A DNA stretch of 64,000 nucleotides from Bacteroidia bacterium (lineage in GTDB: Bacteria; Bacteroidota; Bacteroidia; UKL13-3), in contig JBMOGB010000001.1 of NCBI GenBank assembly GCA_049318585.1, positions 62,851 to 126,850 of the forward strand. The letters run 5' to 3'. This document shows, piece by piece, positions 9,750 through 58,757 of the stretch. Each line of letters starts with the position of its first letter. Position 1 is the first letter of the stretch. A program made the translations under genes and the position numbers. The notes beneath the pieces were generated by a model. The model ran no database searches, was not told where the DNA came from, and saw only the letters and a program-made list of their open reading frames with translations.

Positions 9750-10913
9750 ATGTTCTTTAATAATATTGAAATTAATATTATCCATACCCACAATAAAGAA
9801 TATCAACTTAACTTAATGAATCAAATAGCAAATGCTTATAATGGCAAATGCTTGTCAGCTGCATACACCAATAATTCAACAAAATTAAATTTCATTTGTG
9901 AAAAGAATCACCAATTCATTATGACACCATTGCATATTAAAAATGCCCACTGGTGCAATATTTGCAGAAATTCAATCTTCTCAATGAATCAAATTATTAA
10001 TAAAGCAATTTCAATGGGCGGAAAATGCTTAACCAATACCAGACCAAAAGCCAGAGAAAAAATGCCATTTGAATGTAAACTTGGTCATAATTTTTTTTAT
10101 CATGCTTTTAGCGTTATGGCAAATCATTGGTGCCCAACTTGCTATATTAATAAAGATCATAGCTATAGCCGCATCTGCAATATAGCTTTCTCTCATAATG
10201 GTAAATGCTTATCATCAGAATATGTCGATAGCATTACCCCCATGAACTTTGAATGCATAAATAAACATGCCTTCTCCGCCCAACCAAGAAGAATAAAAGA
10301 AGGCTCCTGGTGCAAACAATGTAATATAAATAAAACAAAATTAAACTTCGATGAAATTAAACAAAAAATATTCTCCAAAAATGGGAAATGCTTCTCAGAT
10401 AATTATATAAACGCCAATACAAAAATTATAGTACAATGTCATAAAGGTCATATATGGAACGCTAAACCTACCGATATTTTCCATGATTCATGGTGCCCTA
10501 TTTGCTCCAAAAGCGTTGGAGAAAATATCGTTAGAGAAATATTCCAAAAAACATTTAATGATGAATTTATATCCGTTAGACCAGATTGGTTAAAAAACCC
10601 AGATACAAATTATAATATGGAATTAGATGGGTTTTGTGAAAAATTAAAACTCGCTTTTGAATATAATGGAGTGCAACATTACAAACAAAGCTTTTTCCAA
10701 AGCGAAAAAGCATTTAAACGGCAACAAATAAGAGATCAATATAAAATCAATATCACAAAAGAATTGGGAATTAATTTGATTATCATAAAAAGCTTTAAAC
10801 AATTTAATGTTAATAAAATGAAAGCAAAAATCAAAGATGAGCTAATAAAAGCTAATCTTAATGTACCAGATCATTTTGATAATATTGAAATTGATATTTC
10901 AAAATTCTATTAA
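9750..10913 (+). CDS. Zn-ribbon array (4 units) + C-terminal Vsr/DUF559-like PD-(D/E)xK endonuclease
   Basis: Four repeats of GKC(L/F)S..Y.N...K..F.C..GH.......I.....WCP.C, then ..MELDGFCEKLKLAFEYNGVQHY...QIRDQYK...LGINLIII. Confidence 0.8.
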   Translation: MFFNNIEINIIHTHNKEYQLNLMNQIANAYNGKCLSAAYTNNSTKLNFICEKNHQFIMTPLHIKNAHWCNICRNSIFSMNQIINKAISMGGKCLTNTRPKAREKMPFECKLGHNFFYHAFSVMANHWCPTCYINKDHSYSRICNIAFSHNGKCLSSEYVDSITPMNFECINKHAFSAQPRRIKEGSWCKQCNINKTKLNFDEIKQKIFSKNGKCFSDNYINANTKIIVQCHKGHIWNAKPTDIFHDSWCPICSKSVGENIVREIFQKTFNDEFISVRPDWLKNPDTNYNMELDGFCEKLKLAFEYNGVQHYKQSFFQSEKAFKRQQIRDQYKINITKELGINLIIIKSFKQFNVNKMKAKIKDELIKANLNVPDHFDNIEIDISKFY

Positions 10914-10921
10914 AAGGAAAA

Positions 10922-11608
10922 ATGTTTAAGATCACTCATAGCTCAAATACAATGCCCTTCGCCTATACTGTCGATCCTTCAGCTCAGTTTCAGGGAGGTA
11001 TGGTCGGTCAATTATATCTATATGGAAATAATATAGTCTGTGGCGTATCCGATGGGACTGCTCCTCTAGGTATCATAGATGATATAAGAACAAATGCTTT
11101 CTATAAACCTATGGTCGATGAAACTCATCTAGTCCCTGTCGTTGGTGCCATCGCGCCAGATGGTAAAATGCGCTCAGTAGCAGACGCTACAGAATTACTA
11201 TATGAAAGTAATATAATGCCGAATAGCTTCGTTTGCGATATACCTGTATATCTTAAGGAAAAGAATGGCGCGGTTATTATACCAACAGGTACTGAGTTAA
11301 ATTATGACCAGAATGGCACTGGTCCAGATTCTATTAAGTTTATTTGTTCCTATATGCACCAAATACCAGGTGTCCCAGGAGACGATTCGGTAATTGGATC
11401 GAATAGAATCACAATTTGGTATGGCAAGATGATATTCCAAACTGATCAATTTGAGGCTTCGCAAAGGTATGCTTTGAATGCTCCTCTGTTTTGTAATGAG
11501 AGTGGATACTTAACTACGCGACAAGTAACACCAACACATCCAGCTATAGGAATGGTAGTTGGACCCCCATCAGCAAGGCTGCCAAATTTAGAAGTATTAT
11601 TATTCTAA
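10922..11608 (+). CDS. GC-richer putative virion (decoration-like) protein, distant paralogue of 22727..23419
   Basis: 228-aa ORF, 8 nt after the previous stop. It shares ..(I/V)T(I/L)W..(10-30)..PLF....G.LT..(10-20)..(V/I)G with the gene upstream of the capsid gene. G+C is much higher than in the flanking endonuclease genes. Confidence 0.45.
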   Translation: MFKITHSSNTMPFAYTVDPSAQFQGGMVGQLYLYGNNIVCGVSDGTAPLGIIDDIRTNAFYKPMVDETHLVPVVGAIAPDGKMRSVADATELLYESNIMPNSFVCDIPVYLKEKNGAVIIPTGTELNYDQNGTGPDSIKFICSYMHQIPGVPGDDSVIGSNRITIWYGKMIFQTDQFEASQRYALNAPLFCNESGYLTTRQVTPTHPAIGMVVGPPSARLPNLEVLLF

Positions 11609-12396
11609 GAATTCCAAACGGTTCTAAAATCTAATTTAATATTATCAAAATTATCTGGCAATGTTATATTGTTTCTTATTAACTCATTTTTTATTATAGC
11701 AAGTAATTCCTTCTCAGTAACTTTCTTATTAATTTCATTAAAATATATTATTTTGATATTTCTCTTTTCGCATTCTGTTCTTTTAATAAAATCTCTTAAT
11801 TGTTGTTTTTTTAAAATATCATCATTCATTTTATATAAATCTACTATTTGATAATGTTGCCTTCCTTGATGTTCAAAAGCGATATTTAATTCCTTGCAAA
11901 ATCCATCAAGTTCTAATTTTCTATTAGTTTTAGGATTTATTAAAAACTCTGGTTTAATTTTATTAAACTTGTAACCAAAGATTTGTTCTAGAGCACATCT
12001 ACAAACAGTTTCTCCATATGAGCTAGAACAAATAGGGCACCAAGATTTAGAATTATATATGTGCTTCCATTTAGCTTTCCATATATGATTCTTTGAGCAA
12101 GAGAATATTAAATTATGATGAGCATTTATATATTCTGGTGATAAGCATTTGCCATTATATTGATCATTAACATAATTTGAAATGAATTCGATTGTTGGAG
12201 AGATTGGAATATTATTGCAAACTTTGCACCATATATTATTATATCTTATATTAAACCAAGTAGATTCAAATATATGTCCATTGACGCATTTAATAATTAA
12301 TTTTTTAGTTTGATTTATATATATATCATTTAAACATATTGCATTAAATTTATTATTAATATATGATTTTATTTTATTTATAGTTATTTTATTCAT
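11605..12396 (-). CDS. Zn-ribbon array (2 units) + C-terminal Vsr/DUF559-like endonuclease
   Basis: YNGKCLSPEYINAHHNLIFSCSKNHIWKAKWKHIYNSKSWCPICS, then KLELDGFCKELNIAFEHQGRQHY..QLRDFIK. ATGA overlap with the upstream gene. Confidence 0.8.
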   Translation of the reverse strand: MNKITINKIKSYINNKFNAICLNDIYINQTKKLIIKCVNGHIFESTWFNIRYNNIWCKVCNNIPISPTIEFISNYVNDQYNGKCLSPEYINAHHNLIFSCSKNHIWKAKWKHIYNSKSWCPICSSSYGETVCRCALEQIFGYKFNKIKPEFLINPKTNRKLELDGFCKELNIAFEHQGRQHYQIVDLYKMNDDILKKQQLRDFIKRTECEKRNIKIIYFNEINKKVTEKELLAIIKNELIRNNITLPDNFDNIKLDFRTVWNS

Positions 12397-57293: not shown

Positions 57294-57306
57294 AATATAA
57301 TATTAT

Positions 57307-57345
57307 ATTATTATTATTATTATTATTATTATTATTATTATTATT
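57307..57345. repeat. (ATT)13 microsatellite in the 5' leader/promoter of 56508..57293
   Basis: 13 uninterrupted att units on the + strand (AAT on the coding strand), 13 nt from the ATG. No SD is visible between them. Confidence 0.9.
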
Positions 57346-57380
57346 ATGATGTGATATTTAATGTAACTATAGTATATTTT

Positions 57381-58757
57381 TCATATTTTTTTTAATTTAT
57401 TTGCTTTTTCAAATTCATTTTCCCAAATAGTTATTATCTTATAACCAGCTTTAGTTATTTCATTTTCTCTTTTAATTGTTTTATAATATAATTCTTTAAA
57501 TTTTTTCTTATTTTTATAGTTATTTTTTTCTGGATTATAAATTTTTGGATTTCCATGCCAAAAATCGCCATAAAATTCATATATTGTATTTGTTTCTTCA
57601 ACATAAGCATCCACTTGATATTTTTTATTATTAATTATTAATGTTTTATGCCTATGTTTTAATTCTATATTTATAGAATCTAACCACAAAATTTCTTTTT
57701 TAGATATTATATGGCTATGAAATGGGCAATTGTATTTTCGTTTCGTTCTTGCTGCAACAACCGTTTGCCATTCATGTAAATTATTTTTATTGCATCTCCA
57801 CCAAACTTTTGATTTATGAGCATAATAAGTATTTTCTGGCGTTTTATTTCCATTTTTTTCTGGATGCCATTCATTTGCTATATCTGGAAACATAGTCGCC
57901 AAACAATTTGTTTCATTAACTTTATGCCCAGAACAATAAGGACAGCCTTTACATTTCCTATTTGAAACTGAAGCTAACCATGTATGTTTATTATTTTTTA
58001 AACATATCCACCAATATTTTTTACTGTTATATGCATTAACCTCATCTGGCAATAATATATTCTTATTATAATTCCATTCTTTTGCAAGTTTTGGGTATAA
58101 TAATTTAAGATTATTTGTCTCGTTTGTTTTTAAATTTGCGCAATATGGACATCCAAAATTAGATGTTCGTTGATTTATAGAAGAATACCATTCATGTTTA
58201 TCGTTTTTGTCACATATCCACCAAATTTTTTCATGGCTTCCAAAAGTATAATTTTCTGGTAATTTATTTCCATTTTTTGTTGAATGCCATTGTTTTGCTA
58301 TTTGTGGAAATTTTACTGCTAAATTATTAAAATCGTCAGCTTTATGCCCAACGCAATATGGGCATCCATTACCAAGCGCAGTTCTACTACATATTATCGC
58401 TTCCCAATTATGTTTTATATTTTTGCTACAAATCCACCAAGATTTATAATTACTTCCTGGAGTTACTTCATTAGGATTTAATATATTTTTACTGAAATCC
58501 CATTCTTTCATTAGATCTGGGTTTAATGTTAGTAAAGAATTATCATTATTTACTTTTTTATTAGCACAAAATGGGCACCCAGTTTTACTTAAAGCTCTAT
58601 TTCCAATACTAGCAAGCCAATTATGTTTTATATCTTTTTGACATTGCCATAATATTTTTTTGTGGCTTCCGTGAGTTACTTGATTTGGCAATATAATATT
58701 ATCTTTATGCCATTCTTCGCATAATTTTGGATGAGTAATATTTAATGTTTCTTTCAT
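57381..58757 (-). CDS. 6x treble-clef zinc-ribbon (DUF4379-like) repeats + C-terminal Vsr-like endonuclease
   Basis: Repeats of the form L..EW.......P.......S..K.WW.C.KN.KH.W.......R.....GCPYC.G.K. C-terminus YQVDAYVEETNTIYEFYGDFWHGNP. Confidence 0.8.
   Translation of the reverse strand: MKETLNITHPKLCEEWHKDNIILPNQVTHGSHKKILWQCQKDIKHNWLASIGNRALSKTGCPFCANKKVNNDNSLLTLNPDLMKEWDFSKNILNPNEVTPGSNYKSWWICSKNIKHNWEAIICSRTALGNGCPYCVGHKADDFNNLAVKFPQIAKQWHSTKNGNKLPENYTFGSHEKIWWICDKNDKHEWYSSINQRTSNFGCPYCANLKTNETNNLKLLYPKLAKEWNYNKNILLPDEVNAYNSKKYWWICLKNNKHTWLASVSNRKCKGCPYCSGHKVNETNCLATMFPDIANEWHPEKNGNKTPENTYYAHKSKVWWRCNKNNLHEWQTVVAARTKRKYNCPFHSHIISKKEILWLDSINIELKHRHKTLIINNKKYQVDAYVEETNTIYEFYGDFWHGNPKIYNPEKNNYKNKKKFKELYYKTIKRENEITKAGYKIITIWENEFEKANKLKKI

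What the first reader, a model, noticed from the sequence alone, without database searches (positions are those of the whole stretch)
9750..58757. Eight-member family of Zn-ribbon arrays fused to a Vsr/DUF559-like nuclease core, with permuted module order, sitting next to structural genes
Seen:
- Seven genes share ~45-aa units (GKCLS..Y.N...K..W.C..(GH/C).W......I.....WCP.C).
- They also share a ~110-aa core: E.ICR..FE..F...F..(I/V).P.W........(M/L)ELDG(F/Y)CEEL.(I/L)AFE(Y/H).G.QHY...(Q/E).RD..K...C......L(I/V).I.
- Module orders are 4Z-N (9750, 12393c, 48113c), 2Z-N (11605c), 1Z-N-3Z (41618), 2Z-N-2Z (55327c) and 3Z-N-2Z (42794c).
- An eighth gene (57381c) has 6 treble-clef DUF4379-like units plus a ..EFYGDFWHGNP Vsr-like end.
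- All are extremely AT-rich.
- They abut GC-richer structural genes (10922, 40641, 53773, 58847) or auxiliary genes (guaC, MTase).

Established: the D..E.DG..H..D..R order fits the DUF559/Vsr PD-(D/E)xK fold. T4 seg/mob homing endonucleases occupy similar intergenic positions.

Inference: this is a modular homing-endonuclease-like family. The number and order of Zn-ribbon units could set target specificity, somewhat like zinc-finger arrays.
Basis: partly seen in the sequence, partly recalled or inferred. Interest (0 to 1): 0.65.

Follow-up and report, generated by a model that had tools for sequence, protein, structure and literature searches.

The report
Zinc-ribbon-array homing endonuclease gene family
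Eight genes in this giant-phage fragment encode selfish "homing" nucleases, built from strings of small zinc-binding DNA-recognition units joined to a DNA-cutting domain; the family is real and mobile, but it has already been described in phages and giant viruses.

Summary
Seven ORFs share a ~140-aa nuclease core (37-62% identity) and 27 ~50-aa zinc-ribbon units, in the stated orders. The residues E, D, E, G, H and K are invariant, also across 51 metagenomic homologs. The eighth ORF has 5 (not 6) canonical DUF4379 units and a different, more Vsr-like nuclease.

The core models confidently (pLDDT 91). Its best solved-structure match is E. coli Vsr, but that match is weak.

All eight match PHROG 559/681. 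The core profile finds about 22,000 protein clusters. Homologs sit inside intron-split genes of Staphylococcus and Bacillus phages and are annotated "Hef-like homing endonuclease" in Campylobacter phages. A 2025 paper (PMC12350094) already describes this architecture as a large outgroup of the EDxHD/Vsr homing endonucleases.

- Junctions occupied here are empty in related phage-G-like contigs.
- Elsewhere the same junctions hold a different family member, another intergenic insert, or a one-unit remnant.

Arrays on both sides of the nuclease are the majority pattern family-wide (97 of 155), so the permuted order is not special to this window.

Verdict: free-standing homing endonuclease genes, new members of a known kind. 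Cleavage, and whether the units read DNA modularly, remain untested.

The parts
9750..10913 (+). Homing endonuclease gene (HEG) g9750, 387 aa, 4 zinc-ribbon units then the nuclease core (core about 10494-10910)
   Evidence: phrog_559 E 1.9e-44. Core HMM E 9e-60. Units listed. A same-family gene of 37-40% identity sits at the same junction in L025 and L026. It is absent from L022-L024.
11605..12396 (-). HEG g11605c, 263 aa, 2 units then the core (core about 11614-12039)
   Evidence: phrog_559 E 4e-27 and phrog_9084 'homing endonuclease' E 2.9e-9. Core HMM E 1e-64. Its start overlaps the stop of g12393c (ATGA). The S228|guaC junction is empty in five relatives.
12393..13544 (-). HEG g12393c, 383 aa, 4 units then the core (core about 12396-12812)
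   Evidence: phrog_559 E 3.5e-36. Core HMM E 2.5e-59. Its start overlaps the guaC stop (TAATG). Absent from L022-L026.
41618..42790 (+). HEG g41618, 390 aa, 1 unit, the core, then 3 units (core about 41780-42208)
   Evidence: Pfam CapR E 4.5e-16 and DUF4379 E 7e-15. phrog_559 E 6e-42. An ortholog of 57% identity with the same architecture sits at the same junction in L027. It is absent from L028 and reduced to a 66-aa single unit in L029.
42794..44131 (-). HEG g42794c, 445 aa, 3 units (the first a variant), the core, then 2 units (core about 43163-43591)
   Evidence: phrog_559 E 2.8e-36. Core HMM E 7e-65. Homologs of 44% identity sit in L028 at this junction (600 aa) and in L009 at an unidentified position about 8 kb upstream of S527. 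It is absent from L027 and L029.
48113..49249 (-). HEG g48113c, 378 aa, 4 units then the core (core about 48116-48520). It is convergent with a small N6-adenine methyltransferase gene (47566-48111).
   Evidence: Pfam DUF4379 E 1.5e-10. phrog_559 E 4.5e-45. tblastn finds matches in 235 phage records.
55327..56505 (-). HEG g55327c, 392 aa, 2 units, the core, then 2 units (core about 55729-56157). Its 3' end overlaps the 3' end of structural gene 53773-55356 by 30 nt.
   Evidence: Pfam DUF4379 E 2e-25 and CapR E 8e-13. Full-length AF2 model pLDDT 86. The junction is empty in L005, L008, L027 and L029.
57381..58757 (-). HEG-like gene g57381c, 458 aa: 5 canonical DUF4379 treble-clef units plus a distinct C-terminal Vsr-like nuclease (about 57384-57710)
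   Evidence: Pfam DUF4379 E 4.9e-87 in 5 stretches. The C-terminus aligns to E. coli Vsr with D at Vsr D51 and W-H at Vsr W68-H69 (pairwise BLASTP E 0.01). Not hit by the core HMM. It lies in the same insertion as g55327c, which is absent from relatives.
56508..57293 (-). 261-aa ORF of unknown function, carried between the two HEGs in the 3.5-kb insert between structural genes 53773 and 58847
   Evidence: No significant Pfam hit. The whole interval is missing in L005, L008, L027 and L029.

Best explanation
The seven core-bearing genes are free-standing homing endonuclease genes. They belong to the family that joins arrays of CapR/DUF4379-type treble-clef zinc-ribbon units to a Vsr-like PD-(D/E)xK nuclease. 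This family is PHROG 559/681/9084, the 'Hef-like' endonucleases of Campylobacter phages, and the 'EDxHD/Vsr outgroup' of PMC12350094. The eighth gene is a cousin: canonical DUF4379 units on a different, more Vsr-like nuclease.

The host is an uncultured phage-G-like megaphage.

Proposed mechanism:
1. The zinc-ribbon units, on one or both sides of the nuclease, bind an extended DNA site.
2. The core cuts near an intergenic junction in a co-infecting relative that lacks the gene. The candidate catalytic residues are E10, D44, E55, H61, D79 and K82.
3. Recombinational repair from the endonuclease-bearing genome copies the gene, and any neighbouring cargo, into the break.
4. The resident genome is immune because the insertion or local divergence disrupts the site.

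Shown here: family membership, conservation of the candidate catalytic residues, the restriction-endonuclease-like fold, and patchy presence or absence at otherwise conserved junctions.

Inferred: DNA binding by the units, cleavage activity, and the homing step itself.
For: Family:
- All eight hit phrog_559 (E 1e-14 to 1e-45) and phrog_681. Four core-bearing genes hit phrog_9084 'homing endonuclease'.
- tblastn finds 235 phage records, including Campylobacter 'Hef-like homing endonuclease' genes.
- The core profile finds 21,955 clusters at 50% identity.

Link to intron-encoded endonucleases:
- The profile matches an ORF between the two halves of the viral RNA polymerase beta gene of Staphylococcus phage PB50 (hhalign probability 96.4%).
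- It matches an ORF inside the split terminase gene of Bacillus phage Mawwa (probability 98.9%, E 2e-17).

Active site and fold:
- E10, D44, E55, G58, H61 and K82 are invariant across 58 sequences.
- The AF2 model has pLDDT 91.
- The top solved-structure match is Vsr 1cw0, followed by the R2 nuclease, TnsA, AbaSI and XisH, all PD-(D/E)xK.
- DUF2726 is weakly hit in 29 of 58 homologs.

Mobility:
- S228|guaC holds two genes here and none in L022-L026.
- w9043|S228 is occupied here and in L025/L026, but not in L022-L024.
- After S301: g41618 plus g42794c here, only the g41618 ortholog in L027, only the g42794c homolog in L028, and a 66-aa single-unit remnant in L029.
- S527|S1240 carries a 3.5-kb insert here. 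The gap is about 100 bp in L005, L008 and L027, and 64 bp between the called genes in L029. L006 has a different family member there, and L015 an HTH-array ORF.

Other points:
- No intron RNA is detected in the window, so the genes are free-standing.
- A GIY-YIG endonuclease also sits in the window.
- There are no hits to defence-system models.
Against: - I found no cleavage assay for a member with zinc-ribbon arrays, so cleavage and homing are inferred.
- The match to Vsr is weak (Foldseek E 0.22, TM 0.50).
- Sequence profiles find neither Vsr nor I-Bth0305I.
- g41618 and its L027 ortholog have diverged about as much as the flanking structural gene (57% against 60% identity). That means long vertical co-residence with an intact active site, which also fits a nuclease kept for the phage's benefit.
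- The relatives are distant (41-71% identity in flanking proteins). No recent gain or loss event and no target site could be reconstructed.
Confidence: 0.75

Rival explanations
1. The genes are domesticated nucleases kept for the phage's benefit. They might degrade host DNA, exclude competing relatives, or stimulate recombination, and they no longer spread by homing.
For: The active-site residues are intact in all seven paralogs despite 37-62% divergence. The g41618 ortholog in L027 has been retained as long as the flanking gene. g12393c and g11605c are translationally coupled to guaC. Giant-virus homologs are annotated 'restriction endonuclease' (PMC5513546).
Against: Each copy is individually present or absent among relatives, and a remnant exists. 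The same junctions hold unrelated or other-family inserts elsewhere. Homologs sit in self-splicing introns (PMC12350094). A nuclease that degrades the host would not need seven divergent recognition arrays.
Confidence: 0.15
2. g48113c and the adjacent small N6-adenine methyltransferase (47566-48111) form a restriction-modification-like pair.
For: The two genes are convergent and two bases apart. The methyltransferase matches type II methyltransferase models.
Against: The other six core-bearing genes have no adjacent methyltransferase. g48113c belongs to the same family and has the same architecture as the others. No restriction-enzyme model in PADLOC hits it.
Confidence: 0.03
3. The proteins are catalytically dead DNA- or RNA-binding proteins, such as regulators, that only retain a nuclease-like fold.
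For: Solved DUF4379 domains are mitoribosome-associated proteins, so the units can act without cleavage.
Against: The acidic, His and Lys residues expected for an active PD-(D/E)xK or Vsr-type site are invariant across 58 diverse homologs.
Confidence: 0.03

Closest known systems
CapR/DUF4379/DUF723-array + EDxHD/Vsr-like homing endonucleases of phage group I and II introns (PMC12350094, NAR 2025)
   Same: Both have ~60-aa zinc-ribbon units related to CapR and DUF4379, followed by a ~100-140-aa Vsr-like nuclease. Both have thousands of unannotated homologs. Profile matches to intron ORFs in a Staphylococcus jumbo phage and in Bacillus phage Mawwa reach 96-99% probability.
   Different: The genes here are free-standing and intergenic, not intron-encoded. 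Three of the seven also carry 2-3 units after the nuclease. The paper describes 3-5 units followed by a C-terminal nuclease.
EDxHD family: I-Bth0305I (PDB 3R3P) and Hef of phage U5 (PMC3239194; Sandegren 2005, cited in PMC2988022)
   Same: Both have a Vsr-like nuclease with conserved E, D, H and D in the same order. The D-to-H spacing is 17 residues here and 17 between D196 and H213 of I-Bth0305I. Hef is free-standing and replaces mobE between nrd genes. Campylobacter phage homologs of the window proteins are annotated Hef-like.
   Different: There is no detectable sequence match to 3R3P or Vsr. The DNA-binding part is a zinc-ribbon array instead of NUMOD/helix-turn-helix. An extra invariant E55 and K82 give a more classical D...E...K look.
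T4 seg (GIY-YIG) and mob (HNH) free-standing homing endonucleases (PMC2988022)
   Same: Both occupy intergenic positions between conserved genes, show patchy distribution among relatives, and have many copies per genome. Different endonuclease families target the same locus.
   Different: The catalytic folds and DNA-binding modules are unrelated.
Giant-virus 'restriction endonuclease' / zinc-ribbon proteins, e.g. Marseilleviridae proteins with 4 DUF4379 domains plus a restriction endonuclease domain (PMC5513546); Klosneuvirus and Mimivirus LCMiAC01 proteins
   Same: These are the closest nuclease cores in the viral structure library (Foldseek E 6e-13 to 1e-9, 30-43% identity, TM 0.74-0.82). 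They also carry zinc-ribbon arrays.
   Different: The hosts are eukaryotic viruses. Their mobility has not been analysed.
Pfam DUF2726, DUF559 and RAP (PD-(D/E)xK clan)
   Same: Weak profile hits in 29, 3 and 2 of 58 homologs respectively. The motif order is D ... E-x-x-G-x-x-H ... D-x-x-K.
   Different: All hits are below the Pfam gathering thresholds, and none falls on the window proteins themselves.

Membership tests
CapR/DUF4379-array + Vsr-like homing endonucleases (PMC12350094; PHROG 559/681/9084) | Several ~60-aa CapR/DUF4379/DUF723-like zinc-ribbon units | tested here: met
   Pfam DUF4379 and/or CapR hits in 5 of 8 proteins, up to E 4.9e-87. The other three (9750, 11605c, 12393c) carry units that align with these at 30-47% identity and hit phrog_559 over their full length.
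CapR/DUF4379-array + Vsr-like homing endonucleases (PMC12350094; PHROG 559/681/9084) | A ~100-140-aa nuclease domain homologous to that of the intron-encoded members | tested here: met
   hhalign of the 58-sequence core profile against the PB50 intron ORF gives probability 96.4%, and against the Mawwa terminase intron ORF 98.9% (E 2e-17). I did not verify that these two ORFs are among the four named in the paper. Gene 57381c does not meet this feature.
CapR/DUF4379-array + Vsr-like homing endonucleases (PMC12350094; PHROG 559/681/9084) | Nuclease at the C-terminus, after the array | tested here: inconclusive
   True for 4 of 7. The other three have 2-3 further units after the nuclease. Among 155 family proteins, 97 have units on both sides, so this is not a real family boundary.
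EDxHD / Vsr-like homing endonucleases (I-Bth0305I, Hef) | Vsr-like variant of the PD-(D/E)xK fold | tested here: inconclusive
   For the AF2 model (pLDDT 91), the best solved match is Vsr 1cw0_A, but with probability 0.82, E 0.22 and TM 0.50. The next hits are other PD-(D/E)xK nucleases. The full-length model again hits 1vsr with probability 0.84. 3R3P is not in the top 50.
EDxHD / Vsr-like homing endonucleases (I-Bth0305I, Hef) | Conserved E, D, x, H, D active-site residues | tested here: inconclusive
   E10, D44 and H61 are invariant and D79 nearly so, in the right order. Equivalence to Vsr E25, D51, H69 and D97 rests on motif order and on a non-significant alignment through gene 57381c. No structural superposition was possible.
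EDxHD / Vsr-like homing endonucleases (I-Bth0305I, Hef) | Detectable sequence homology to Vsr or I-Bth0305I | tested here: not met
   Profile searches of all PDB sequences at E up to 10 find neither. hhalign against E. coli Vsr gives probability 0.3%. Only gene 57381c aligns to Vsr (pairwise BLASTP E 0.01).
Homing endonuclease genes (functional class) | Sporadic presence or absence at otherwise conserved genomic positions | tested here: met
   Four junctions were compared in 5 to 10 related contigs each. I found empty sites, sites with a different family member, and a one-unit remnant.
Homing endonuclease genes (functional class) | Site-specific cleavage of the endonuclease-free allele, and copying of the gene by repair | not testable with these tools
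   This needs protein expression and cleavage or homing assays.
Pfam DUF2726 / DUF559 | Score above the Pfam gathering threshold | tested here: not met
   The window proteins give no hit at E <= 0.1. Homologs give sub-threshold hits only (best E 2.8e-5).

The most novel reading that the evidence does not exclude
The zinc-ribbon units may be a modular DNA-reading code. Each ~50-aa unit would contact a short stretch of DNA. Arrays of 1-7 units before the nuclease and 0-6 after it would then specify long, asymmetric sites on both sides of the cut, and gain, loss or exchange of units would retarget the enzyme. That would make this very large family a natural, re-programmable nuclease scaffold comparable to zinc-finger or TALE nucleases. 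My data neither support nor exclude it. Units are 30-53% identical. There is some positional orthology between paralogs and no sign of recent shuffling.
Probability: 0.2. Interest if true: 0.7.

Novelty: new member of a known kind. Interest (0 to 1): 0.3.

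Why it matters
The result confirms that an uncultured phage-G-like megaphage devotes about 15% of this 64-kb window to homing endonuclease genes (9.3 kb for these eight, plus a GIY-YIG gene). 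The window includes virion structural genes.

It also gives concrete occupied-versus-empty junction pairs that could serve directly as substrates for the first cleavage assays of this large, poorly characterised family (about 22,000 clusters).

The family-wide finding that the nuclease is usually flanked by arrays on both sides extends the published description. It bears on how such enzymes recognise long sites.

None of this changes current understanding of phage mobile elements.

Tried and rejected
- PDB sequence searches with the 7- and 58-sequence core profiles gave only chance hits (RadA, Rep), and nothing for Vsr or 3R3P.
- hhalign of the core profile against E. coli Vsr gave probability 0.3%. 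Against the nuclease end of gene 57381c it gave 2.5%, although that alignment is register-consistent.
- NCBIfam gave no meaningful hits. PADLOC gave none for the eight proteins, so I did not pursue a defence-system reading.
- F-CphI was considered as a relative and rejected. It uses the Endo VII motif (PMC6083498 abstract).
- Rfam at gathering thresholds found no introns, and ARAGORN found no tRNAs, so an intron-encoded context was rejected.
- IMG/VR scans with flanking genes 10922, 40641 and 15428 found no relatives.
- Phage G itself (first 50 kb) has no copy of the core and too little synteny to use.
- The unit-level tree gave only weak structure: within-gene identity 36% against 31% between genes. 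Neither recent shuffling nor strict vertical descent can be claimed.
- A literature search for CapR with 'zinc ribbon' and 'phage' found nothing on the CapR domain.
- The C-terminus of the 540-aa ORF in L015 looked LAGLIDADG-like by eye, but Pfam did not confirm it.

Full report

Yes. The eight ORFs are at the stated coordinates and strands.

- A hidden Markov model built from the seven putative cores finds exactly those seven in the six-frame translation of the window (E 1e-57 to 1e-65). It finds nothing else.
- Core identities are 37-62%.
- E10, D44, E55, G58, Q60, H61, Y62, D79 and K82 are invariant among the seven.
- E10, D44, E55, G58, H61 and K82 remain invariant when 51 metagenomic homologs are added.

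Two corrections apply to gene 57381c. It has five DUF4379 units, not six. Its nuclease end is a different domain that the core model does not detect.

The AT-richness is real but modest. The eight genes average 25.9% GC against 31.1% for the other ORFs (p = 0.005). That lies within the range of many other genes in a window that is 30% GC overall.

**2. What genome is this?**

- The major capsid protein (23639-24703) is 52% identical to that of Bacillus phage G.
- Window proteins are identical to proteins on a 171,750-bp NCBI contig labelled as a Bacteroidia MAG.
- Relatives occur on metagenomic contigs of up to ~500 kb.

The window is therefore part of an uncultured phage-G-like megaphage. It includes its virion structural genes.

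**3. What are the proteins?**

*Zinc-ribbon units.*
- Pfam recognises them as DUF4379 (treble clef) and CapR in five of the eight proteins.
- PHROGs places all eight in phrog_559 (E down to 4.5e-45) and phrog_681. Four cores also hit phrog_9084, 'homing endonuclease'. The 'HNH endonuclease' label on phrog_559 appears to be a mislabel, because nothing HNH-like was found.
- A full-length model of g55327c (pLDDT 86) shows four repeats of helix, three short strands, short helix and knuckle around the nuclease.
- Its best solved matches are DUF4379 proteins of kinetoplastid mitoribosomes and, again, Vsr.

*Nuclease core.*
- The window cores have no Pfam match. In homologs, DUF2726 is weakly hit in 29 of 58, DUF559 in 3 and RAP in 2. 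All are PD-(D/E)xK families.
- An AlphaFold2 model of the core is confident (pLDDT 91).
- Its best solved-structure match is E. coli Vsr bound to DNA (probability 0.82, E 0.22, TM 0.50). The R2 nuclease domain, TnsA, AbaSI and XisH follow.
- The fold class is therefore clear, but the specific link to Vsr is weak. Sequence profiles do not reach Vsr or I-Bth0305I.

*Gene 57381c.* By contrast, it aligns directly to Vsr across D51 and W68-H69.

**4. Is the family known?**

Yes.

- tblastn finds homologs in 235 phage records. They include Campylobacter phage genes annotated 'Hef-like homing endonuclease' and genes in Staphylococcus, Bacillus, Listeria and Lactococcus phages.
- One homolog lies between the two halves of the viral RNA polymerase beta gene of Staphylococcus jumbo phage PB50. 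Another lies inside the split terminase gene of Bacillus phage Mawwa and is annotated 'group I intron protein'. Profile comparison gives 96.4% and 98.9% probability for these two.
- PMC12350094 (NAR 2025) describes endonucleases in phage group I and II introns. They have three to five ~60-aa CapR/DUF4379/DUF723-like domains followed by a nuclease distantly related to EDxHD/Vsr. [quoted passage not shown]
- PMC3239194 had already placed Hef-type endonucleases in the Vsr-like EDxHD family.
- In the viral structure library the closest cores are from giant viruses, at 30-43% identity and E down to 6e-13.
- The core profile finds 21,955 clusters in the 1.84-billion-protein library.

**5. Is the 'permuted order' special?**

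No. I analysed 155 proteins: 148 of the best representatives from the library search plus the seven core-bearing window proteins.

| Position of zinc units | Proteins |
|---|---|
| Both sides of the nuclease | 97 |
| Before the nuclease only | 53 |
| After the nuclease only | 2 |
| No units | 1 |
| Two nuclease cores (not classified by side) | 2 |

Counts run from 0-7 units before the nuclease and 0-6 after it. Nearly all have at least one unit directly before the nuclease. Its last CxxC knuckle lies five residues before the conserved E10.

Within the window the units are 30-53% identical. There is some positional orthology: the two units after the nuclease in g41618 pair with those of g55327c, and the nuclease-proximal units of g9750 and g11605c pair with each other. 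There is no sign of recent shuffling.

**6. Are they mobile?**

| Junction | This window | Relatives |
|---|---|---|
| S228 (10922) \| guaC | g11605c and g12393c, translationally coupled to guaC (overlaps TAATG and ATGA) | Directly adjacent in L022-L026; flanking proteins 58-71% identical |
| w9043 \| S228 | g9750 | A 37-40% identical family member in L025 and L026; only a ~50-aa ORF in L022-L024 |
| After S301 (40641) | g41618 plus g42794c | L027: only a g41618 ortholog (57% identity, same architecture). L028: only a g42794c homolog (44% identity, 600 aa, reverse strand), plus a GIY-YIG/NUMOD3 gene on the other side of S301. L029: a 66-aa ORF that is a single zinc unit, followed directly by the S527 and S1240 homologs |
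| S527 (53773) \| S1240 (58847) | 3.5 kb: g55327c, a 261-aa ORF and g57381c | About 100 bp in L005, L008 and L027; 64 bp between the called genes in L029. L006: a different family member (311 aa, 3 units then the nuclease, 32% identity). L015: a 540-aa helix-turn-helix-array ORF. L007, L010, L013 and L019: unrelated small ORFs |

L029 suggests that the ancestral order was S301-S527-S1240. In the window, 12.2 kb and 3.5 kb of mostly reverse-strand cargo are inserted at these two points.

This is the patchy pattern expected of free-standing homing endonucleases and their degeneration cycle. It is not what fixed functional genes would show.

The window has no Rfam intron. It also carries a GIY-YIG endonuclease at 21763-22572.

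**7. Mechanism and confidence**

The best explanation (about 0.75) is that these are free-standing homing endonuclease genes. The zinc-ribbon arrays would bind DNA. The Vsr-like core would cut the endonuclease-free junction in a co-infecting relative. Repair would then copy the gene across.

- Shown: family, fold class, conserved active-site candidates, and patchy distribution.
- Inferred: DNA binding, cleavage and homing.

The main rival (about 0.15) is domestication. It is suggested by intact active sites in old paralogs, and by the g41618 ortholog having diverged no faster than its neighbouring gene.

A restriction-modification pairing of g48113c with the adjacent methyltransferase is unlikely. 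So is a non-catalytic role.

**8. Novelty**

These are new members of a known kind. The modest additions are:
- the family-wide two-sided array architecture;
- the density of copies in a megaphage region that includes structural genes;
- well-defined occupied and empty junction pairs for assays.

The zinc-finger-like recognition code remains an open and attractive idea, but it is unsupported.

Noticed in passing
window 21763-22572 (-): A 269-aa GIY-YIG endonuclease (Pfam E 5.7e-10, above threshold) lies on the reverse strand inside the forward-strand head-gene block. Its N-terminus is 40% identical to a GIY-YIG/NUMOD3 gene that sits at a different junction (epimerase|S301) in relative L028. 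It is a ninth putative homing endonuclease, from a classical family.
   Followed up: partly
window 44336-47431 (-): ORF 45746-47431 (561 aa) is followed by two ORFs that together look like a split duplicate of it. ORF 45130-45735 matches its residues 8-194 (58% identity). ORF 44336-45127 matches its residues 212-440 (48% identity). The C-terminal parts are rich in CxxC pairs, with weak LIM and double-zinc-ribbon hits. Function is unknown.
   Followed up: partly
window about 57300-57345: A run of about 14 TAA repeats (as read on the minus strand) lies in the 87-bp spacer between g57381c and ORF 56508-57293.
   Followed up: no
whole window: The window's proteins are identical to proteins on a 171,750-bp NCBI contig labelled as a Bacteroidia bacterium MAG (locus tags ACOYMA_). 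Yet the capsid protein is 52% identical to that of Bacillus phage G, and relatives sit on contigs of up to ~500 kb. This looks like a megaphage contig binned into a bacterial MAG, and possibly a hint about the host.
   Followed up: partly
L029 9065-9265: A lone 66-aa ORF consists of one intact zinc-ribbon unit (Pfam DUF4379 E 1.5e-6). It sits between the S301 and S527 homologs, where the window has 12 kb of inserted genes. It is probably the remnant of a decayed family member.
   Followed up: yes
L015 3076-4698 (-): In the S527|S1240 junction of a relative sits a 540-aa ORF made of repeated helix-turn-helix units (HTH_50 E 5.5e-18). Its C-terminal motif (WYWQGFMAADACI) looked LAGLIDADG-like to me, but Pfam did not confirm it. 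It may be a different endonuclease family using the same insertion site.
   Followed up: partly
nuclease cores of the seven genes: In the viral structure library the closest cores are from giant viruses of eukaryotes (Mimivirus LCMiAC01 43%, Klosneuvirus 41% identity). Iridovirus and ascovirus 'Uvr/REP helicase' proteins also match. All are well above the homologs from phages in that library (about 18-27%). This could reflect exchange between phages and giant viruses, or only sampling.
   Followed up: no
window 13544-14554 (-) and 39660-40592 (-): Two metabolic genes are embedded among structural genes: a GMP reductase/IMPDH-family gene (Pfam E 1e-54) and a GDP-sugar epimerase/reductase-like gene (Epimerase E 1e-66). 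Both are conserved at the same positions in relatives, unlike the endonuclease genes.
   Followed up: partly
window 9043-9732 (+): A 229-aa protein has a long Asp/Glu-rich low-complexity middle and a C-terminal CxxC...CxxC. Its homologs in L022 and L023 are only 91 aa and match the N-terminal ~100 residues, so the acidic tract looks like a lineage-specific expansion.
   Followed up: no
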